A stretch of 64,000 bases of DNA from Nitrospirota bacterium (GCA_016213945.1 JACQZF010000029.1:3981-67980); one strand, 5' to 3'. Counted from the first letter of the stretch, positions 34,759 to 46,013 are shown. Made by a program: numbers and translations. Notes: generated from the sequence alone by a model not told the origin.

Positions 34759-36132
34759 TTAATTTTTTTGTTTTTTTGATAGCTTTAATTTTTTATCCAG
34801 GCTACTAACAGGAACATAATAAAATGTTCGTCCCTTCTTAAATTTTTCCAGTAACCCTTTTTTATCAAGCCGGAGAAGATCTGCCCGTGCTGTTTCGTAT
34901 GTAATTGCACAGGTATTCATATGAGATTCGATTGTATACATTACATCTGCGTGTGTTAATGCATGATATAGAAGCGCGGATTGCCTGTCATTTAACCCTG
35001 GGTAGCGGATTAAAGAAGTTGTCACTTCTTTAATCTCTGTTGTTTTCTTAGCTAAATACTTCCTTAATTCTTCGATAGCTAAACGTATTGCACGAAGATG
35101 AAAAGATAAGAAATATGTAATATCCTGTTCATCTTTTTCAGAATAAAGAAAAGCCCTGTAATATTGAGAAGGGGCTTTTTTAATAACTCTTGATATTGAG
35201 AGATATTCTGTTAACCAATATCCACTTTTCAACATATACCAATAGAACAATGCTCTGGCAGTTCTTCCATTTCCGTCCACAAATGGATGGTCATAAGCTA
35301 ACCAAAAGTGTAAAATTATAGCCCTTACTACAGGATGAGTAAATTCATTCTCATTGTTCTCGTTCGCAAACTGGCAGAGAAGTTTTATCCTTTCCGGCAG
35401 TTCATGCGCTGGCGGAGGAGTATGTAACAATTCACCACCGGGATTTACTACCTCTATAGGCTCATCTTCTTTTCTAAATCTCCCCGATGTGTTTGGGTCA
35501 TCCAGCGTATTTTGTGTCAGAGATGCCTGTAGTGCTTTCAGGACATCAGGCGACAATGGTTCAGCTATAATATTCTTGATATTTTTTATTGTGACATAGT
35601 TGTTATAAATCATTTGTTCTGCATGGTTCGTGGGTTTTCTTCCAAATCTCAACATTTCCTTGGCTACTTTTCTTGTCGTAGCCGCACCTTCCAATTGGCT
35701 TGAGGCAATAGCTTCTTCCATAAGAGAACTTATCAAAAAGCGTTCTTTTTCTTTTGCATGAACATGAGGACTATCTACTAAAATTTCTCCAGCAGCATGT
35801 TGATCCAGGTAGTGTAATTCTTTAAATAATGAATCAGGTAGCCAATAACCAAATTCTTTGCTTTGAGTATCCGTTAAGGGAATTTTCTTCTTATGACTAT
35901 TGCGTGTTGCCCGTAAAAGAGACCATGCAACCTCCATAGAGGTTAAATTTAAATTGTAAATATGTTTAAATTTATCCCAATATATATATCCTCTATTGCA
36001 TTTATTAATAAATGCAATAAAATCCTGGTTAGATGAAATATTAATAAATTCTTCGACGTTTTCTTTCTTTAATACCGCCTTCCAATCAGGCGGACTCTCT
36101 ATCATTTTCATATAAGCCTCTCTACTTTCCAA
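34759..36132 (-). CDS. Fic family protein with C-terminal winged HTH
   Basis: HPFVDGNGRTAR Fic motif, SSQLEG, C-terminal TARADLLRL..KGLL; alternative ATG at 36111. Confidence 0.93.
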   Translation of the reverse strand: MESREAYMKMIESPPDWKAVLKKENVEEFINISSNQDFIAFINKCNRGYIYWDKFKHIYNLNLTSMEVAWSLLRATRNSHKKKIPLTDTQSKEFGYWLPDSLFKELHYLDQHAAGEILVDSPHVHAKEKERFLISSLMEEAIASSQLEGAATTRKVAKEMLRFGRKPTNHAEQMIYNNYVTIKNIKNIIAEPLSPDVLKALQASLTQNTLDDPNTSGRFRKEDEPIEVVNPGGELLHTPPPAHELPERIKLLCQFANENNENEFTHPVVRAIILHFWLAYDHPFVDGNGRTARALFYWYMLKSGYWLTEYLSISRVIKKAPSQYYRAFLYSEKDEQDITYFLSFHLRAIRLAIEELRKYLAKKTTEIKEVTTSLIRYPGLNDRQSALLYHALTHADVMYTIESHMNTCAITYETARADLLRLDKKGLLEKFKKGRTFYYVPVSSLDKKLKLSKKQKN

Positions 36133-39457: not shown

Positions 39458-40091
39458 TTATTTCGACGGCGGCCAGAGGTTTTCTCTCAGAAGCCTCTTG
39501 TCAATAACTTGCTCGGATACTTCAAAATACCGTGCGATTGCATGCGCAATATATTCCCGCGCTGATTCTCCGGATGAATCCCATGTATTAAAGCCTGAAC
39601 TTTCCAACAGTAAGACAGCTTCATTTAGCTTCTCAACGAGTTTCTCTCTTGGCACAAGCAGCCGTCCTGCAAATTCGTAGGCATGTTGTTCGATCCACGT
39701 GTACTGATCATCAGGGATTCTGTCAAAGAAATCTATCCATTCTTCAAGCGAAGCATATTGGATTTTTGAGAATACATCGGAATGAAGAACGTAATGCCCG
39801 ATCTCATGAGCAATTGAAAATCTTAGCCTGTTCTGTGCCCGGTCACTCAGAAAGTCGTTCTGGTCTACCACTATAGTTTTTAAATTACCAAGCAGGAGAG
39901 CATCCACGTCTCCGGCTTCCCGCAAATTGAAGATTGTGCGGATTTCTATATCAAGACCGAATTCCAGAATGTCGAAGATGTCTATCGGGGATAGTATCTT
40001 GGGGCCAGTATCGCATACGGAGATCATCCGCTGCTTTTCTTATATCTTCAATTTTTATAAACGGGGCTTTAAAGTTTTTGGGATCTAACAC
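39458..40091 (-). pseudogene. ImmA/IrrE (peptidase M78) metallopeptidase with a +1 frameshift
   Basis: RFSIAHEIGH and EQHAYEFAGRLLVP; the N-terminus from GTG 40091 (VLDPKNFKAPFIKIEDIRKAADDLRMRYWPQDTIP) joins IDIFDILEF only if one base of the G4 run at 39987-39990 is removed. Confidence 0.8.
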
Positions 40092-40097
40092 GGCATA

Positions 40098-40475
40098 TCA
40101 ACTCTTCTTGATTTTAGCTGCCAACTTCCTCATTTCTTCTTCTGTCGGTTTTTGACCACGCAACGTCCTGAAAAAGGCAGGAAGCATCCTAACTACTTCA
40201 GGGTCCGACATAATGTCTTTGGGAATAATTCCCCGGTTGGCAGCGGCAAGGTCAAAAAAAGCATACCAGTCATTGCTGCCCTTTGTGATACCAAGGGCTT
40301 CTGCATAGCGTTCCAGTATGTCGGGGTCCTGAGGAGGAGGCATTGCGCCCCGTTCGATCCGGCTGATATTGGCTGGGTCAGCGGATGCTTTGAGACAAAA
40401 TTCTCTGAGAGTTACTTTCTTTTTTTTTCGAAGGTGTTTTAAGAAGTCACCAAAAGACTTAAATTCGTTGCTCAT
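40098..40475 (-). CDS. XRE-family HTH transcriptional regulator
   Basis: FGDFLKHLRKK..TLREFC...DPANISRIERG; GGAGG RBS. Confidence 0.92.
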   Translation of the reverse strand: MSNEFKSFGDFLKHLRKKKKVTLREFCLKASADPANISRIERGAMPPPQDPDILERYAEALGITKGSNDWYAFFDLAAANRGIIPKDIMSDPEVVRMLPAFFRTLRGQKPTEEEMRKLAAKIKKS

Positions 40476-40502
40476 ACTCGCCCCTCCGTTAATTTGTGCT
40501 TG

Positions 40503-40539
40503 TTGTACAATTATTACAAATTAATCAGGGTAAAGTCAA
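40503..40539 (-). promoter_or_regulatory. Putative promoter/operator of the XRE-ImmA pair
   Basis: TTGACT (40539-40534), 17 bp, TAATAA (40516-40511); adjacent TTGTACAA palindrome at 40503-40510. Confidence 0.45.
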
Positions 40540-40578
40540 TGATTGGTGAGTGTGCCACCATAGAAGTTTTCCAGACGA

Positions 40579-43500
40579 TTACATCTTATTATATTTCTCA
40601 TACAAGCCCCTCAGGAATTCATAACCTTTCATCCCGTAAATATTACATATGTTATCAGCATCTTCTTTATTCTGGTTGATATACAGTTTTTCAACAATTG
40701 ACCGGATATGCTCTTGTCTGAAATCAGCAATAAAATGTTCAAGCATTTTCAAGAATATCTTGCCTACATAGCCAATGCTTTTTGGATCGTCAAATTTATC
40801 GAGATATTCAATAATGAATGAAGAATGATAATTTTCATTTATATAAGGAGCTGCTAATAGTAACCACCTTGAATATTCTGCATTAATATGAGGAAGAAAG
40901 ATGGTAAGTTTTCCCAGGGCAGACAGGATTTTTTTGTCATCTGCGCCTATGTCCGTCTCTGGTTTTGTCTTATATCTATTATCATAGATCCATTTCCAGC
41001 AAGAGATAATTTTATCGACAATTTTCCGGCTCTCTTCTTTTTCATCCTCAATATATTTCTGCTGTGACCATAAGAAGCTGACAACGTCCAATATTTGTTC
41101 TCGATTCCAAGCATTTAAAACCTTCCTGAATAAACTTTCAGGGTTGTTTACATCTTCTTTTCCAAGCAAATATTCAAGGGCTATATGCTGTGCCAAATGT
41201 TCATTATCATGTTTATTTTTAAACTCATGTGTTATTCCATATTTATAGTGAGGAATCATAAGGTTATAAAGTTCATCGTAAACTTGCCCAATTGATAAGT
41301 ATCCGTCTATAAAAGCTTCCCAGTATTTATCATCTGTCACCGGATACAAGCTTTTCACTTTCTCTTCAGCCCATGTTTTGTCCAAATAGAACAAATTAGG
41401 CAGATATCGACCAAGCATCGTATAGCTTTCAATGATTTTAATTTTTAACAGCTCATTATATTTTCCCTTAATTTCATCACTCCACTTAACTTCCGATGTA
41501 TCCCCTTTCTTATCTTTGACACGGGCAATACGCAATGCATGATTAATGAGTGCGATGATCGTCTTCCCATGAGGGGAGTTTAGGGCATGTGTTACATAGT
41601 CCGTTATCTCCTTTTCTTCTTCAGCTTCTAACTTGCTGAGAATCAGGAAAATTATTTCTTCTGCCTTTGGGAAATATTTTTCATCATATGCCCATGAATC
41701 ATCTCTTGTTCCGTCTTGTACGAGCTGCATAATTGCACCGATAATCCAGAAATGATTGGCTCCGCCGAGAAAGTCTCCTTTTTCAACTATGAATTCATCT
41801 CTCCCAAATTCATCTCTGTTAATATACAGATGCATAAATTCAAATAATTTGTCCCAGGCAATGTCCAGCTTTTTACTCCATGCTTCCCTTGCGCCATCAA
41901 GAATTTCATAAATATAGGTAAATCCGGAGTTAATGAATGGATATAAGTCATCGATAAATTTATTTGGTTTCTCAGCAACACATTCTTTTATCAATCTTGC
42001 CAATCCTCCAACCGTGGGGCCTTCTTCCCAAAAACCTGTTGACTTAAAATCCTTGAGGTATGAAGGGAGTGTTTTTGCAGACAACATTTTCAGGATTTCT
42101 TCTTTGGATAATGGTGAAGGTCCCCCGCCTTCACGGACGTGAATCTCCCCTACGGCAGCATGTAAGCCAACATCCCTTCCAGTTTGAGACTTAAGAGATT
42201 CATATAATTCTTTAAATTCTGGAAATTTTACAAGTGCCTGACATCTTTCCTGTTTCCACTCTGCAATGTGTCTTTCTGCATCTTCCTCAGGAACGAATCC
42301 GGGGCCATCCTTTAGTTTCTTGATTATTAATTCTTTCTGATGAGGTGATAGTTCTGTTAAATTCTCTAAAATGTGTTTCAACTCATCTCCGAAGTATATT
42401 TCCCCAAAGATAAGATTACTCGTATCTTTTCCCAATACATTCCAGAATATGTCGTTATATATATTGGCATTATTACCGATGATATAAAGAGCCATCTTCG
42501 GGAAATAAAAATATTTATCCATGAAAAAGTCTTCCAATATCTTTTTTGTTTCATCGGCATGGTTTCTTGACCGTATCATTAGAATACTTTTCAAGACAAA
42601 TGAAAGTACCTCAAGCGGGTCTGTGAGGTGGGTTCTTGATCCATCATAAAAACTTGCATGTGTTTCCTCATCATGAAAGTTGAAATATAGCCTATAAATA
42701 TCTCTTTTCAATTCTTTTGTCTCTATGCTCTTAAACAGCACATCTTTCGTTAAATCATCAAACAGGTTAGATGAGAAGTTATCTAATGTCGTCTCATCCA
42801 TTGTTATTTTCTGAAGTGGTGTTCCTTCCAGTTTCTTCTTCATAAACACATATTCATAGACATCAGACCCAGATTTCTCGCCCATGTCAAAAACCTTTAC
42901 TAAATATTTACCGTCAACAGATGTAAGCGCTAACAGATATGCTTTATCTCCTGCCTCGAAAGGAATTAATGAGTCATCTTTTTTCAGTAGAGTGCGTATC
43001 TTTTCACATAAAGCATAAACAACACTGTTCGTACACTTTTCTCCAATGTCCTTGATGTGCTTTTCAAATATATCCTTTACCCAGTATGAATCTATAACAA
43101 GCTTATATTCCTCTTCCCTGTTATAGATTCTGGCTCTCTCTTCGGACAACTTAACGGACTTCACATTAGTTATATAATCAACAATTCGCTCGGCTTTAGT
43201 AATATCCTCTGAGAAAGGATTTCCAGACAAAAAATTAGGCAATAATTTAAGGCCAAGTTCTGAGCCGACAAGAGATGCATCAAACCTGGAACTAAGCCAA
43301 ACAGGAATTAACTCAATAATATTAATCGGTATTTTTTCTCTCGGAATATTAAGCAAGATTAATACAAAGCTTCGCCATGTATGGTAGTTATCAACATGTT
43401 GGCCATCTGAGTTTTTATGGTTTGAAACTTCTTTAATGATTTGCAGTAACTCATCTATATACTTTTCATTGCCTCGTTCTTTGACTTGCTCAGACACCTT

Positions 43501-44193
43501 TTCCAAATAAGATAGAACATTCCACCAAGGGATTGAATAAAACCCTTCTTGCTCAGCAGGCTTGGGGCCAAGTGCATTTATTGCATCGAAATATTCCCCA
43601 GCTTTTAAAACATTGAACCAGTGGAGTGCTGTAACTTGTTTGAAAAAATAATTTTTATAAGGTTCATTTTGTATCAACTCCAGAATGAAGTTCACTTCAT
43701 GACGAGACGGTCCTTGCTTTTTCAAAATCAAATCGACATGTTCAATATTTTCAAAGTATTTATCCTGATATTTTGATATTTCCTCCGTCTTTGTTTTTTT
43801 TCTGATTGGTTCAATTAATTTTTGATATTGTGAATCTACAATAAAATTGCGCTCGAATTTTACACTATAAATATCATGAAGCAATGGAGGGGCCTCATTA
43901 AATTCTAATTCGAGCAATACTGGAAGTATTACAACGTAATCTTTACCCATCTGTCTCATCAATGTTGAATTAAGCTCCCTCAAAACCCACTCACTTTTGA
44001 TGGAATATTCGGAAATAACTACAATCAAGAAACTGCTCTTTTCTAAGCCTTCGCTAATCTTTTGAACAATGGAATCACCAATTTCTAATTCCCAATCGTC
44101 AATCCACACATCGATATTATCTTTTTTCATCTTTCCTGCTAATTGCAGCACAAAATCATGATCTTTAGATGTGTGTGATATAAATACTTTCAT
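40579..44193 (-). CDS. TIR-domain protein with ~1050-aa predicted helical C-terminal region (putative defence sensor/effector)
   Basis: MKVFISH..KD, VWID, SSFLIVVIS, SEWVLREL (catalytic Glu intact); AT-rich; ATGA overlap with the upstream SIR2 gene. Confidence 0.88.
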   Translation of the reverse strand: MKVFISHTSKDHDFVLQLAGKMKKDNIDVWIDDWELEIGDSIVQKISEGLEKSSFLIVVISEYSIKSEWVLRELNSTLMRQMGKDYVVILPVLLELEFNEAPPLLHDIYSVKFERNFIVDSQYQKLIEPIRKKTKTEEISKYQDKYFENIEHVDLILKKQGPSRHEVNFILELIQNEPYKNYFFKQVTALHWFNVLKAGEYFDAINALGPKPAEQEGFYSIPWWNVLSYLEKVSEQVKERGNEKYIDELLQIIKEVSNHKNSDGQHVDNYHTWRSFVLILLNIPREKIPINIIELIPVWLSSRFDASLVGSELGLKLLPNFLSGNPFSEDITKAERIVDYITNVKSVKLSEERARIYNREEEYKLVIDSYWVKDIFEKHIKDIGEKCTNSVVYALCEKIRTLLKKDDSLIPFEAGDKAYLLALTSVDGKYLVKVFDMGEKSGSDVYEYVFMKKKLEGTPLQKITMDETTLDNFSSNLFDDLTKDVLFKSIETKELKRDIYRLYFNFHDEETHASFYDGSRTHLTDPLEVLSFVLKSILMIRSRNHADETKKILEDFFMDKYFYFPKMALYIIGNNANIYNDIFWNVLGKDTSNLIFGEIYFGDELKHILENLTELSPHQKELIIKKLKDGPGFVPEEDAERHIAEWKQERCQALVKFPEFKELYESLKSQTGRDVGLHAAVGEIHVREGGGPSPLSKEEILKMLSAKTLPSYLKDFKSTGFWEEGPTVGGLARLIKECVAEKPNKFIDDLYPFINSGFTYIYEILDGAREAWSKKLDIAWDKLFEFMHLYINRDEFGRDEFIVEKGDFLGGANHFWIIGAIMQLVQDGTRDDSWAYDEKYFPKAEEIIFLILSKLEAEEEKEITDYVTHALNSPHGKTIIALINHALRIARVKDKKGDTSEVKWSDEIKGKYNELLKIKIIESYTMLGRYLPNLFYLDKTWAEEKVKSLYPVTDDKYWEAFIDGYLSIGQVYDELYNLMIPHYKYGITHEFKNKHDNEHLAQHIALEYLLGKEDVNNPESLFRKVLNAWNREQILDVVSFLWSQQKYIEDEKEESRKIVDKIISCWKWIYDNRYKTKPETDIGADDKKILSALGKLTIFLPHINAEYSRWLLLAAPYINENYHSSFIIEYLDKFDDPKSIGYVGKIFLKMLEHFIADFRQEHIRSIVEKLYINQNKEDADNICNIYGMKGYEFLRGLYEKYNKM

Positions 44194-45062
44194 CTTAATC
44201 CTTCTGTCTTATTGTTCACAGCTTTATATAAAGCATCTATTACTTTTAGTAGTACCTCATGCCCTTCTTCATCTATATAATAAGGAATTAAGTGAGTATT
44301 ATAGTTCTCTTTCATTGTAGTTTTTCTAATCTTTAAATAGTCCTCTCTGTTTCGGCTACTCTCCTCTAACCAATAATGAGTTTTTCTTTTCTTTGTAAGA
44401 GATAGCGCTCTTTTTATATCATCTTCTCTCAAGCCATATCCTACGAATAAAACATTATAATTATCAAAGATATTTATCAAAAATTTCATACATGATGCAT
44501 CATCAATAATGTAGCCCTTATTGTATTGAGCTCTTGTAAATATCCAGGTGTCTTCCTTGTCTACCCTTCCATGAATATAATTAAGCAACTTAGGAGAATT
44601 TCCCAAATTTGGATTAATTGTTACCAACTCGTCAGGTACACCTATAAATTGCTGATAACTCCTGTCTATATTTGTAGTAACAAAAAAATTATTCCAATTA
44701 TTCAGTCTATTTAAATAAGCATAGATTTCATTATTGCTTTTTTGTTCATCATCACAAAAAATGCTCTTGATCCCTTTAATAAAAAGAGGTTTATCAAGAG
44801 CATATAAAAAATTAAAAGCCTCAATAACATCTTCATGTTTTTTAAAATATTCGCAAAAACTATAATCAAGTGTCTTTCTTTTATCTTCAGAAATAGCAGT
44901 CCTGTTAGTCCAGAAAAAATCAATCACACCATCTCTCAATTCGTTCCATAATTTATATCCAGCCAACTTAGAAACCCCAGCGCCAAAAAATATGCAAGTT
45001 CCGCTTGATAAAGAATATAGTAATGTTTCGTATTGAGGTAAATTGAAATTAGGTATACTCAA
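44190..45062 (-). CDS. Stand-alone SIR2-like (SIR2_2) NAD-consuming domain protein
   Basis: FFGAGVS, VTTNID, YIHG, VLFVGYG motifs; 290 aa with no additional domain. Confidence 0.9.
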   Translation of the reverse strand: MSIPNFNLPQYETLLYSLSSGTCIFFGAGVSKLAGYKLWNELRDGVIDFFWTNRTAISEDKRKTLDYSFCEYFKKHEDVIEAFNFLYALDKPLFIKGIKSIFCDDEQKSNNEIYAYLNRLNNWNNFFVTTNIDRSYQQFIGVPDELVTINPNLGNSPKLLNYIHGRVDKEDTWIFTRAQYNKGYIIDDASCMKFLINIFDNYNVLFVGYGLREDDIKRALSLTKKRKTHYWLEESSRNREDYLKIRKTTMKENYNTHLIPYYIDEEGHEVLLKVIDALYKAVNNKTEGLR

Positions 45063-45138
45063 ATCAAGTTTCCATAATGCTTAATGCATAGTTCATTTAT
45101 TAATCATCTTTTTTCCCATCCACCGCCTGCCTGAACAT

Positions 45139-45238
45139 TTTAATCTCTTAGGGTCTAATTCCCCGTAGCTCTGCTACGTTCTGATAAGATGATGTTGTTC
45201 TTTGATACCTCGTTAGCTCTGCTGCGAGGTAGTTCATT
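45139..45238. mobile_element. Possible non-autonomous hairpin-ended element remnant
   Basis: Two related hairpins, cgtagc-tct-gctacg (45164-45178) and tacctcg...cgaggta (45206-45231), sharing agctctgct; at the island edge. Confidence 0.4.
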
Positions 45239-45257
45239 GTCTTTTTTGAACTGATTC

Positions 45258-46013
45258 TCAATTCATCCCGCAGCACTTCTTGTATTTCTTGCCGCTGCCG
45301 CAGGGACATGGATCATTACGGCCGATTCTCACTGTATGACTTGCAACGGATTGAGTAAAAGGGTGAAGGTGTTCTTTCCCCAGCGTTTTTGCATAAGCCT
45401 GCACTGTTGAAACAGCTCTTGGCAACAAGGCGAAAAGGGTAGCCTCCAACTTCAAGTCAGAATCATTTATCTCAGGATCATGCCCTGTTTTTTCAAAAAC
45501 CTCAGGGATGTTCTCCGGCGTTGCAACCGAAATAATGATACCGAGACTGGTTACAATTTCCTGCTCTTCCTCTGTTATTGTCTCTTCAGCACGGTCCCCA
45601 AATTCCCAGATTTCATACCGTAAAGTTATTGCCTGATAAAGACCATACGTCCAGTCGCGTATACGCGGAATGTCCCCTTTTTTCAACGCCCCTATATCGA
45701 AGGGGAAGAAAAGTCTTTCGCTATGGTTTTCATCAGACAGTATGTTACAGATTTTGAAAAGATGCCCCATTAACTCCTCTGCTTCACCTTCGCTCTCAAA
45801 TTCCATCATCTCTTCACCGAAAGCTACTGGCAGCCACTCACTCGGTTTAATCAGTTCCGGAGTGATTGCAAGACCGAAGAGAAAGCCGTGTAGAGCCTCC
45901 AGATTAAATGCCTCAACCGGGTCAACTACTCTGGATAACAGCTTCATGAGGTTTTTCTTGTCTTTTGTAGTAAACATATCAGTGGTTGTATAACGATTAC
46001 GTCCACGATTCAC
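45258..46013 (-). CDS. UPF0149/YecA family protein with SEC-C motif
   Basis: [19 protein letters not shown]; [18 protein letters not shown]. Confidence 0.9.

What the first reader, a model, noticed from the sequence alone, without database searches (positions are those of the whole stretch)
40579..45062. Candidate new anti-phage system: stand-alone SIR2 coupled to a giant TIR-sensor protein
Seen: two AT-rich genes overlapping by ATGA. One is a 290-aa SIR2 with intact GAGxS/TTNxD/HG motifs; the other is a 1204-aa protein with an N-terminal TIR (WxxxE intact) and ~1050 further residues lacking an obvious NTPase motif. Known: SIR2 and TIR domains consume NAD+ in Thoeris, DSR, SPARSA/SPARTA and Avs systems. 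This pair fits none of them: the SIR2 has no SLOG/Macro domain, the TIR is not a small ThsB, and there is no pAgo, HerA or STAND partner. Inference: C-terminal motifs (HALNSPHGKTIIALI, LPNLFYLDKTW, WEAFIDGYL) recall, from memory, the C-terminal region of Dsr1-like long sirtuins. The locus may therefore be a split DSR in which a TIR now heads the sensor and the sirtuin acts in trans, giving dual NADases or TIR-to-SIR2 signalling.
Basis: partly seen in the sequence, partly recalled or inferred. Interest (0 to 1): 0.85.

Follow-up and report, generated by a model that had tools for sequence, protein, structure and literature searches.

The report
Split Dsr1 defence with extra TIR
Two overlapping genes encode a rare two-protein version of the known Dsr1 anti-phage system, in which the large phage sensor carries a TIR NAD-cleaving domain and is partnered by its own separate SIR2 NAD-cleaving enzyme.

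Summary
On the minus strand, a 290-aa SIR2 gene (44190..45062) overlaps by ATGA a 1204-aa gene (40579..44193) encoding an AbTIR-like TIR plus a ~1030-aa helical region. Both lie in a low-GC stretch.

One PADLOC Dsr1 model matches both proteins colinearly (SIR2 E 4.7e-27, large protein E 1.4e-138). The NCBIfam Dsr1 equivalog is far from met (27 bits against 1400).

This is a Dsr1-family variant, not a new kind of system.
- **Split form is usual:** 59 of 60 TIR-less sensor genes with readable upstream DNA have a separate SIR2 gene directly upstream.
- **TIR form keeps SIR2:** so do 20 of 23 TIR-tipped ones.
- **Module inheritance:** TIR-associated SIR2s need one change on the SIR2 tree; TIR presence needs 10 changes on the sensor tree.
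- **Cassette swap:** a syntenic relative shares the sensor, HTH and M78 genes at 85% nucleotide identity but carries a different SIR2 and no TIR.

SIR2+TIR therefore looks like a portable dual-NADase cassette. Catalytic residues of both enzymes are invariant. How the two cooperate is unresolved: the complex prediction gave no verdict.

An optional CapH/CapP-like regulator pair follows. No paper found describes this pair, but closed supplements may list it. Interest is moderate.

The parts
44190..45062 (-). SIR2 gene (290 aa, TTG start). Stand-alone sirtuin-type NADase of the TIR-associated clade ('SIR2-b').
   Evidence: ORF. Pfam SIR2_2 E 4.3e-12. PADLOC Dsr1 PDLC04166 E 4.7e-27, aa 23-288 on model positions 26-289. 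GAGxS, TTNxD and HG are invariant. AF2 model pLDDT 92.7, single domain. Nearest folds are ThsA, KomC, FAM118B, DSR2 and Avs5 SIR2 domains, TMq 0.50-0.69.
44190..44193 (-). ATGA overlap: the SIR2 stop codon overlaps the TIR-sensor start codon (translational coupling).
   Evidence: Read. In related TIR loci the spacing is -38 to +16 nt, most often -4. These values depend on the first-start-codon convention.
43774..44193 (-). TIR domain (aa 1-140) of the 1204-aa protein.
   Evidence: Pfam TIR_2 E 2.4e-25. The best PDB relatives by sequence are AbTIR-type bacterial TIR NADases: 7uxr, 7uwg, 8g83. W69 and E73 are invariant in 17 of 17.
43684..43773 (-). Linker (aa 141-170) between TIR and sensor. 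The cassette-swap junction lies at its end.
   Evidence: Nucleotide similarity to the syntenic TIR-less locus L001 starts at window 43682, about aa 171.
40579..43683 (-). Dsr1-type helical sensor (aa 171-1204 plus stop codon).
   Evidence: PADLOC Dsr1 PDLC04166 E 1.4e-138. NCBIfam Dsr1 NF041818 E 6.5e-7, 27 bits, aa 851-1072 on model positions 942-1156. AF2 model pLDDT 88: an alpha-solenoid with one small beta insert. A profile search found 4215 related clusters.
45063..45257 (-). Upstream intergenic region, the likely promoter of the pair. It contains a twice-repeated AGCAGAGCTA.
   Evidence: Read. No promoter-like site was listed inside this interval, and site numbers in the scanned region equal chance. 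The function is inferred only.
40098..40475 (-). HTH (Cro/C1-type) gene, CapH-like. An optional regulator.
   Evidence: Pfam HTH_31 E 1.8e-8. PADLOC capH E 2.9e-7. 93% identical to its counterpart in syntenic L001. Also found next to the system in L012 and L014.
39458..40027 (-). M78 (ImmA/IrrE-type) metallopeptidase gene, CapP-like. Its 5' part (40028-40096) carries three in-frame stops relative to L001.
   Evidence: Pfam Peptidase_M78 E 4.2e-12. PADLOC capP E 1.3e-14, covering model positions 35-124 of 242 only. Stops seen. The HEIGH motif is intact.

Best explanation
The locus is a two-gene member of the Dsr1 (defence-associated sirtuin 1) family of anti-phage NAD+-depletion systems.

**Shown**
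- The large helical region is a Dsr1-type sensor.
- The SIR2 that is N-terminal in canonical Dsr1 is here a separate, translationally coupled protein.
- The vacated N-terminus of the sensor carries an AbTIR-like TIR domain.
- Both enzymes keep their catalytic residues.
- This SIR2 clade and the TIR are inherited together, as one cassette exchanged among different sensors.

**Inferred**
- The sensor binds a phage structural protein. The major capsid protein is the published trigger of E. coli Dsr1.
- The SIR2 is held on the TIR-sensor protein as a stoichiometric partner.
- Trigger binding, probably with oligomerisation, switches on NAD+ cleavage by SIR2 (to ADP-ribose and nicotinamide) and by TIR (to ADP-ribose or a cyclic isomer). 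NAD+ is depleted and phage replication stops.
- The HTH/M78 pair next to it may add transcriptional control of the CapH/CapP type.
For: **Homology to Dsr1**
- One PADLOC Dsr1 model matches both proteins colinearly: SIR2 on positions 26-289 at E 4.7e-27, the large protein up to position 1226 of 1227 at E 1.4e-138.
- In a six-frame search of the whole 3.5-Mb genome, NCBIfam Dsr1 matches only these two genes, again colinearly.
- Fused SIR2-sensor proteins of 1329-1377 aa belong to the same family.

**Conserved gene pair**
- 59 of 60 TIR-less sensor loci with readable upstream DNA have a separate SIR2 gene directly upstream. The exception, L013, is a fragment.
- 20 of 23 TIR-sensor loci do too.
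- Pfam confirmed SIR2_2 in 10 of 10 upstream proteins tested.

**Cassette behaviour**
- TIR presence needs 10 changes on the sensor tree, at least 9 of them forced by well-supported branches (52 rows).
- TIR-associated SIR2s need 1 change on the SIR2 tree, with 11 of 13 in a clade at 99% support (45 rows).
- Sensor-fused TIRs form one clade at 97% support.
- Window 43682..39468 matches L001 at 84.9% nucleotide identity over 4219 nt, covering the sensor from about aa 171, the HTH gene and the M78 gene. The SIR2+TIR stretch has no nucleotide match, and L001 carries a SIR2 only 24% identical.

**Active enzymes**
- SIR2 N131, D133, H164 and G165 are invariant in 18 of 18.
- TIR W69 and E73 are invariant in 17 of 17.
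- The SIR2 model resembles defence NADases.
- The TIR aligns with AbTIR, including the WxxxE motif.

**Defence-like distribution**
- Low-GC islet among housekeeping genes.
- A full-length sensor was found in 4 of 60 related genomes searched, none with a TIR.
- The close SIR2 was found in 1 of 400 other genomes of the phylum.

**Published function of the family**
- Dsr1 depletes NAD+ on infection (10.1101/2021.12.14.472415, passages).
- The Dsr1/Avs7 sensor is triggered by phage major capsid protein (PMC12803255 section 5).
Against: - No experiment exists for this subfamily.
- The match to the canonical Dsr1 equivalog is only 27 bits against a cut-off of 1400. Trigger and behaviour may therefore differ from E. 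coli or B. subtilis Dsr1.
- 3 of 23 TIR-sensor loci lack the SIR2 gene: L036, L067, and L057 whose sensor is broken. The TIR form can apparently stand alone.
- Physical binding of SIR2 to the TIR-sensor is inferred, not shown.
- Foldseek of the sensor gives only generic solenoid matches. The best TMq is 0.33, to Avs4. No solved Dsr1 or Avs7 structure was found by sequence or among the top Foldseek hits shown, so the bilobed Dsr1 fold could not be checked.
- The sensor tree was built with FastTree.
- The loci are the best 80 of 304 metagenome matches plus 13 genome matches. They were found with patterns taken partly from the TIR, so the proportions are not population frequencies.
Confidence: 0.7

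Rival explanations
1. Thoeris-like signalling inside a Dsr1 frame. The sensor-activated TIR makes a cyclic ADP-ribose isomer or another NAD-derived signal. That signal, not protein contact, switches on the free SIR2, which then depletes NAD+.
For: - The TIR is AbTIR-like. By recall from the literature, this group makes cADPR isomers.
- The best fold match of the SIR2 is ThsA bound to gcADPR (8bto_A, TMq 0.65).
- Small SIR2 proteins of about 264 aa (KomC) are solved with a nucleotide ligand (9xvc, 8zsi). A bare SIR2 can therefore respond to a small molecule.
- The TIR-associated SIR2 clade has residues of its own: R166, W173, W231, and an insert at about aa 58-65.
Against: - The SIR2 has no SLOG, Macro or other ligand-binding domain. 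Its AF2 model is a single domain.
- Homologous split SIR2 partners work beside TIR-less sensors in 59 loci, where only protein contact can couple them.
- Overlapping genes suggest a stoichiometric complex.
Confidence: 0.12
2. Only one enzyme matters. The TIR is the working effector, and the SIR2 is a leftover or a regulator that holds the TIR off. Or the reverse: the TIR serves only as an oligomerisation scaffold.
For: - 3 of 23 TIR-sensor loci have no SIR2 gene, and they are scattered within the TIR clade.
- Most relatives manage with SIR2 alone.
- The family swaps effectors freely: TIR, SIR2, PIN_12 and an unknown domain.
Against: - Catalytic residues of both enzymes are invariant.
- The SIR2 clade has been kept with the TIR across at least nine sensor backgrounds. 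That is hard to square with a decaying remnant.
Confidence: 0.12
3. Not a defence system. The pair has a housekeeping or other NAD-related role, or the two genes are unrelated neighbours.
For: - The flanking genes are housekeeping, including infB, a DHH phosphoesterase, a nucleoside phosphorylase and hyp genes.
- No other recognised defence system lies beside it. The one exception is a PADLOC candidate-family hit on the UPF0149/SEC-C gene.
Against: - Strong match to a Dsr1 defence profile.
- Patchy distribution.
- Low GC.
- Cassette exchange between close relatives.
- Tight, conserved gene coupling.
Confidence: 0.04

Closest known systems
Dsr1 (defence-associated sirtuin 1; Gao 2020, Garb 2022; sensor characterised in PMC13581612 / PMC12803255)
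   Same: - A SIR2 NADase with the same motifs.
- A helical sensor of about 1000 aa, matched by PADLOC Dsr1 profiles (E 1.4e-138) and weakly by NCBIfam Dsr1, colinearly.
- Fused SIR2-sensor forms exist within the same sequence family.
   Different: - SIR2 is a separate gene.
- The sensor carries an extra TIR domain.
- The score is far below the NCBIfam equivalog cut-off (27 against 1400 bits).
- The SIR2 belongs to a distinct clade found only with TIR-tipped sensors.
- An optional HTH/M78 pair sits alongside.
Split SIR2 + Dsr1-type sensor pairs without TIR (e.g. L001; unnamed in the papers read)
   Same: - Same operon layout with overlapping genes.
- The sensor is 78% identical in L001, which also shares the HTH and M78 genes and the chromosomal site.
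   Different: - No TIR.
- Their SIR2 is only 23-28% identical to the window's in the 8 TIR-less genome loci where tblastn found a match at all. On the SIR2 tree, partners of TIR-less sensors fall outside the TIR-associated clade.
Type I Thoeris (ThsA SIR2-SLOG + ThsB TIR)
   Same: - It combines a TIR and a SIR2 NADase.
- The SIR2 fold is closest to ThsA.
- The TIR also scores on Pfam ThsB_TIR: 28 bits against a cut-off of 21.2.
   Different: - No SLOG domain on the SIR2.
- The TIR is fused to a sensor of about 1030 aa instead of being a small ThsB.
- Homology of both proteins points to Dsr1.
DSR2
   Same: An N-terminal SIR2 NADase plus a large helical sensor that binds a phage structural protein. 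The SIR2 fold is similar (TMq 0.60-0.65 for the DSR2 chains listed).
   Different: - No sequence match of the sensor to DSR2 chains in the PDB.
- DSR2 is a single chain with no TIR.
CapH/CapP regulators of immune operons (10.1101/2022.04.27.489752; 10.64898/2026.05.16.725639)
   Same: An HTH repressor-like gene followed by an M78 peptidase gene, beside an immune operon. PADLOC capH E 2.9e-7 and capP E 1.3e-14.
   Different: - It lies downstream here, not upstream.
- The capP match covers only model positions 35-124 of 242.
- The 5' part of the peptidase gene has stops.
- It is present at only 3 of 93 related loci.

Membership tests
Dsr1 (defence-associated sirtuin 1) | SIR2 domain with NAD-binding and catalytic motifs (GAGxS, TxNxD, HG) | tested here: met
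   Pfam SIR2_2 E 4.3e-12. The motifs are invariant in 18 of 18 homologues. The fold matches defence SIR2s.
Dsr1 (defence-associated sirtuin 1) | Large C-terminal helical sensor homologous to that of Dsr1 | tested here: met
   PADLOC Dsr1 PDLC04166 E 1.4e-138. A second PADLOC Dsr1 model (PDLC02183) gives E 1.4e-5, and NCBIfam NF041818 gives E 6.5e-7, all colinear. The relationship to the canonical E. coli or B. subtilis protein is distant.
Dsr1 (defence-associated sirtuin 1) | Reaches the NCBIfam equivalog cut-off (NF041818, 1400 bits) | tested here: not met
   27.4 bits for the sensor and 15.8 bits for the SIR2. No match in the genome is over the cut-off.
Dsr1 (defence-associated sirtuin 1) | Single polypeptide: SIR2 fused to the sensor, with no other effector domain | tested here: not met
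   Two genes overlap by ATGA, and a TIR sits at the sensor N-terminus. None of the 249 family proteins classified has SIR2, TIR and sensor in one chain.
Dsr1 (defence-associated sirtuin 1) | NAD+ depletion on phage infection; trigger is the phage major capsid protein | not testable with these tools
   Known for B. subtilis and E. coli Dsr1 only.
Thoeris (type I/II) | ThsA effector with a signal-binding domain (SLOG or Macro) next to its SIR2 or TM part | tested here: not met
   The SIR2 protein is 290 aa with a single Pfam domain and a single-domain model. PADLOC ThsA matches are weak (E 5.5e-7) and confined to the SIR2 part.
Thoeris (type I/II) | Small stand-alone ThsB TIR protein | tested here: not met
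   The TIR is fused to a sensor of about 1030 aa.
Avs / STAND NTPase sensors (including Avs7) | Central STAND NTPase (NACHT / NB-ARC) domain | tested here: not met
   No NTPase family in Pfam, NCBIfam or PADLOC hits. The model is a helical solenoid.
SPARTA / SPARSA | Short pAgo partner and an APAZ domain | tested here: not met
   The PADLOC Aga_TIR hits cover only the TIR. No pAgo is among the neighbours scanned.
CapH/CapP regulator pair | HTH repressor plus full-length M78 peptidase with its regulatory C-terminal part, upstream of the operon it controls | tested here: inconclusive
   capH E 2.9e-7. capP E 1.3e-14, but covering model positions 35-124 of 242 only. The pair lies downstream. The 5' part of the peptidase gene has 3 stops. 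The pair sits upstream of the SIR2 gene in L014.

The most novel reading that the evidence does not exclude
SIR2-b plus TIR is an obligate two-enzyme effector cassette that evolved once and is plugged as a unit onto many different Dsr1/Avs7-type sensors. Two mechanisms would explain why both enzymes are kept.
- The TIR's oligomerisation or its NAD-derived product may license the free SIR2.
- The pair may destroy NAD+ by two chemistries (ADP-ribose and a cyclic isomer), so that phage NAD+-reconstitution pathways and single-enzyme inhibitors cannot rescue infection.

Either would be the first case of cooperating SIR2 and TIR NADases outside Thoeris, and a natural example of a transferable dual effector.
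Probability: 0.22. Interest if true: 0.75.

Novelty: new variant of a known kind. Interest (0 to 1): 0.55.

Why it matters
Dsr1 is among the less understood NAD+-depleting defences, and it is described as a single protein. This locus and its relatives show three things.
- In one large branch of the family, the usual form is two proteins.
- The sensor is a platform that accepts different heads: SIR2, TIR, PIN and an unknown domain.
- One head is a co-inherited pair of NADases.

The natural cassette swap between two close relatives has the same sensor, same site and same regulators, with either SIR2 alone or SIR2 plus TIR. It is a ready-made experiment on what a second NADase adds. Possibilities include stronger or faster NAD+ loss, a signal, or resistance to phage counter-measures such as NAD+ reconstitution. 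It also warns annotators that profile tools will probably label the sensor gene 'Dsr1' and miss both the partner SIR2 and the TIR.

Tried and rejected
- **Complex prediction.** SIR2 against aa 1-700 of the TIR-sensor, both as alignments, gave no verdict. The three runs scored 0.72, 0.00 and 0.00, and controls were not run. It says nothing either way about binding.
- **First genome scan.** It was repeated with a closer 12-row alignment.
- **PDB by sequence.** Neither the protein nor a family profile found a solved relative of the sensor or the SIR2. Only TIR chains matched.
- **Foldseek of the sensor model.** It gave generic HEAT/ARM/TPR solenoids with TMq at or below 0.33, so it could not test the bilobed Dsr1/Avs7 architecture.
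- **Longer proteins with this SIR2.** A search for possible SIR2-TIR-sensor fusions found none among 1233 candidates. By the tool's own note this is weak evidence.
- **Viral contigs.** No relative was found.
- **Distance correlations.** Correlations among the TIR, SIR2 and sensor of 13 loci were all high (r 0.91, 0.90, 0.78; 0 of 2000 permutations as high). They did not separate the modules, so the argument rests on the trees instead.
- **Thoeris, SPARTA/SPARSA and Avs** were each considered and rejected as families (see the membership tests).
- **Promoter and terminator scan.** It was no better than shuffled sequence: 21 sites against a mean of 21.0.
- **Earlier notes for this genome.** None lie near the locus, and none share its sequence.

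Full report
**1. What is in the sequence**

Two ORFs lie on the minus strand.
- One runs 44190..45062 (290 aa, TTG start). The other runs 40579..44193 (1204 aa, ATG start).
- The stop codon of the first overlaps the start codon of the second in ATGA.
- The three 2-kb bins from 40001 to 46000 have GC 0.378, 0.359 and 0.367. The bins on either side have 0.446 and 0.469.

Pfam assigns the following.
- SIR2_2 in the small protein: E 4.3e-12, aa 127-245.
- TIR_2 at aa 3-116 of the large one: E 2.4e-25.
- Nothing else in the large protein.

- SIR2 has G27-A28-G29-x-S31, T129-T130-N131-x-D133 and H164-G165.
- TIR has W69-x-x-x-E73.
- The SIR2 core residues are invariant in 13 of 13 TIR-associated and 32 of 32 other partner SIR2s, and in 18 of 18 rows of alignment A4.
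- W69 and E73 are invariant in 17 of 17 TIR-sensor proteins.
- By sequence, the TIR is closest to AbTIR-type bacterial TIR NADases in the PDB: 7uxr, 7uwg and 8g83, E 4e-16 to 5e-15. The WxxxE motifs align. That this glutamate is the catalytic one in AbTIR is recalled from the literature, not taken from a call.

**2. The remembered Dsr1 likeness is real**

- PADLOC model PDLC04166 (Dsr1, 1227 positions) matches the SIR2 protein at E 4.7e-27 (aa 23-288 on model positions 26-289).
- The same model matches the large protein at E 1.4e-138. There are two stretches; the best is aa 544-1203 on model positions 582-1226. Together the two genes cover one Dsr1 model, in order.
- NCBIfam's Dsr1 equivalog NF041818 agrees in direction but only weakly. 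The sensor scores 27.4 bits (aa 851-1072 on model positions 942-1156) and the SIR2 15.8 bits (aa 12-212 on 12-219). The cut-off is 1400 bits.
- In a six-frame search of the whole 3.5-Mb genome, these two genes are the only matches to that model. It matches nothing in 14 control genomes.

The locus is therefore a distant branch of the Dsr1 family, not an equivalog of the studied proteins.

**3. The family and its architectures**

A word-indexed search returned 102 other proteins. My domain classification of them gave 52 TIR-sensor, 46 sensor-only, 3 SIR2-sensor fusions and 1 with another N-terminal domain.

A profile of the sensor alone (A5, 38 rows) was searched against 1.84 billion cluster representatives.
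- 4215 clusters matched at E <= 1e-3, 3131 at <= 1e-10 and 1446 at <= 1e-30.
- Only the best 150 are listed, so only those could be classified:

| Class | Clusters |
|---|---|
| Sensor-only | 100 |
| TIR-sensor | 18 |
| SIR2-sensor fusion | 10 |
| N-terminal fragment | 8 |
| Other N-terminal domain | 14 |

Of the 14 others:
- Four are divergent TIRs. Pfam places two above and two below its cut-off.
- Four carry a PIN_12-type domain. Two were scanned.
- Six carry an unrecognised domain of about 170 aa. One of these was scanned and had no family; P0049, which carries the same domain, showed only a sub-threshold GA-module hit elsewhere in the protein.

None of the 249 family proteins classified joins SIR2, TIR and sensor in one chain.

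**4. Gene neighbourhoods**

- The genome collection gave 13 loci.
- The metagenome collection gave 304 relatives, of which the best 80 were kept. The search patterns came partly from the TIR, so proportions are not frequencies.
- I called ORFs and scored them with an HMM built from 13 partner SIR2s, and with phmmer for the TIR and the sensor. Pfam independently confirmed SIR2_2 in 10 of 10 upstream proteins tested.

The tally over all 93 loci:

| Locus type | Loci |
|---|---|
| Sensor-only, separate SIR2 gene directly upstream | 59 |
| Sensor fragment without SIR2 (L013) | 1 |
| Upstream DNA unreadable | 2 |
| Fused SIR2-sensor (L019) | 1 |
| TIR-sensor with SIR2 gene directly upstream | 20 |
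| TIR-sensor without SIR2 | 3 |
| TIR in unrelated proteins | 7 |

- Three of the 20 SIR2 genes are cut at a contig edge. One TIR ORF (L073) stops after 195 aa, near the contig end.
- The three TIR-sensor loci without SIR2 are L036, L067 and L057. The sensor of L057 is broken.
- Spacing between the SIR2 stop and the sensor start is -41 to +18 nt, most often -4 or -1. These values depend on taking the first start codon.

The two-protein form is therefore the norm in this branch, and the TIR-tipped form nearly always keeps a SIR2.

**5. SIR2 and TIR travel together**

- **Sensor tree.** Sensor region only, 52 rows, FastTree. TIR presence needs 10 changes, at least 9 forced by well-supported branches. 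The window's nearest relative is the TIR-less L001, at 78% identity.
- **SIR2 tree.** 45 rows, IQ-TREE quick, LG+G4. The 13 TIR-associated SIR2s need one change. Eleven sit in a clade at 99% support. L061 and L062 sit beside it, but the branch joining them has only 25% support.
- **TIR tree.** Sensor-fused TIRs form one clade at 97% support. The three SIR2-less cases are scattered inside it, which looks like secondary loss.
- **Direct nucleotide comparison**.
  - Window 43682..39468 matches L001 at 84.9% nucleotide identity over 4219 nt. This covers the sensor from about aa 171, the HTH gene and the M78 gene.
  - Window 45329..45240, the 3' end of the SEC-C gene, matches L001 at 83%.
  - Between these two stretches there is no nucleotide match.
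  - The window has SIR2 plus TIR there. L001 has a SIR2 only 24% identical, followed by a sensor gene whose first ~26 residues lie before the sensor match.

This is a clean cassette replacement at one chromosomal site, with its junction at the TIR/sensor boundary.

**6. Structures**

- **Sensor.** The AF2 model of aa 150-1204 (alignment A5) has mean pLDDT 88.0 and pTM 0.55. It is an alpha-solenoid with one small beta insert. Foldseek finds only generic solenoids. The best TMq is 0.33, to Avs4 bound to a phage portal, 8dgf_A.
- **SIR2.** The model has pLDDT 92.7 and pTM 0.89. It resembles defence NADases: ThsA (8bto_A, TMq 0.65), KomC (9xvc_E, 0.65), human FAM118B (9r0p_B, 0.69), DSR2 (8w56_A, 0.63) and Avs5 (9nc9_L, 0.60). 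Several of these entries are helical or filament assemblies by their titles, which hints that oligomerisation may matter here too. That is an inference.

**7. Surroundings and distribution**

- Directly downstream lie an HTH gene (40098..40475; PADLOC capH E 2.9e-7) and an M78 peptidase gene (39458..40027; capP E 1.3e-14, model positions 35-124 of 242 only).
- The same pair is 93% and 94% identical in L001. It lies upstream of the SIR2 gene in L014, the closest TIR-bearing relative. It lies 2 kb downstream in L012. That makes 3 of 93 loci.
- CapH/CapP pairs de-repress immune operons on DNA damage (abstract of 10.64898/2026.05.16.725639; listing of 10.1101/2022.04.27.489752). Here the role is only suggested.
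- The window's peptidase gene has three in-frame stops in its first ~20 codons compared with L001.
- Other neighbours are housekeeping genes: infB, a DHH/DHHA1 protein, a PD40 beta-propeller protein, a nucleoside phosphorylase, a phosphoribosyltransferase and hyp genes. There is also a Fic protein.
- A full-length sensor was found in 4 of 60 related genomes searched, none with a TIR.
- A close homologue of the SIR2 (60% identity) was found in 1 of 400 other genomes of the phylum, followed there by a TIR-sensor. The three more distant SIR2 matches are also followed by or fused to a sensor.
- Nothing was found on viral contigs.

**8. Literature**

- Dsr1 is described as a single SIR2-domain protein that depletes NAD+, transiently, against phi29 (10.1101/2021.12.14.472415, passages; PMC10952713, passages).
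- The Dsr1 sensor is homologous to the Avs7 sensor. It is bilobed, is triggered by the phage major capsid protein, and occurs with 'NADases, nucleases, and protein kinases'. [quoted passage not shown]
- In both texts TIR appears only in a reference title. The tables and figure that would list architectures are supplements or figures I could not see.
- Three searches found no paper describing a SIR2 gene coupled to a TIR-headed Dsr1-type sensor:
  - 'DSR1, SIR2, phage': 25 papers.
  - 'DSR1, cryo-EM, NAD': 17 papers.
  - 'SIR2-TIR / TIR-SIR2 / SIR2 and TIR domains / TIR and SIR2 domains': 12 papers.

**9. Reading**

Shown:
- Dsr1-family homology.
- The split architecture.
- The TIR fusion.
- Intact catalytic residues in both enzymes.
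- Conserved coupling of the two genes.
- Cassette-like co-inheritance of this SIR2 clade with the TIR.

Inferred:
- Defence function.
- A phage structural protein as the trigger.
- SIR2 bound to the TIR-sensor.
- NAD+ depletion by both enzymes.

Open:
- Whether the TIR adds a second chemistry, a signal or an assembly scaffold.

Earlier notes of this scan on other genomes (e1-2620405, e1-2620665 and others) reached the same reading. They are unchecked AI notes, not independent evidence, and I consulted them only after forming mine.

**10. Verdict**

This is a real and conserved but rare variant of a known kind of system. The claim of a new system is too strong.

Noticed in passing
window 45258..46013 (-): A UPF0149 + SEC-C (YecA-like) protein lies directly upstream of the SIR2 gene, inside the low-GC stretch. 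It matches the PADLOC candidate family PDC-S12 at E 7.6e-20 over nearly the whole model. In syntenic L001 only its last ~90 nt remain. Whether it belongs to the islet is unknown.
   Followed up: partly
window 40028..40096 (-): The 5' part of the M78 peptidase gene reads through three in-frame stops where L001 has an open frame about 22 codons longer (211 against 189 aa). The gene may be N-terminally truncated or decaying. Its HEIGH motif is intact.
   Followed up: partly
window 45063..45257 (-): The intergenic region upstream of the SIR2 gene holds AGCAGAGCTA twice, about 40 nt apart (read). It could be an operator for the neighbouring HTH protein. This was not tested.
   Followed up: no
proteins P0049, P0114, P0175, P0179, P0184, P0194, P0222 and P0221, P0230, P0247, P0248: The same sensor family also carries two other heads. 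One is an unrecognised N-terminal domain of about 170 aa with a conserved AREIExGxRD-like motif and no Pfam match. The other is a PIN_12 nuclease domain.
   Followed up: partly
G000:C73:176151-176426 (locus L095): A second TIR-like stretch lies elsewhere in the same genome, inside a 1498-aa open frame (E 5.7e-5 to the window's TIR). It was not examined.
   Followed up: no
window 34759..36132 (-): A 457-aa Fic/DOC-domain protein lies about 4.4 kb downstream of the M78 gene, among housekeeping genes. It was not examined further.
   Followed up: no
L036, L067: TIR-headed sensors without any SIR2 gene upstream. In L067 a 917-aa ORF ends 23 nt before the sensor gene. In L036 a divergent 333-aa gene lies upstream. 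These are stand-alone TIR-for-SIR2 forms of the family.
   Followed up: partly
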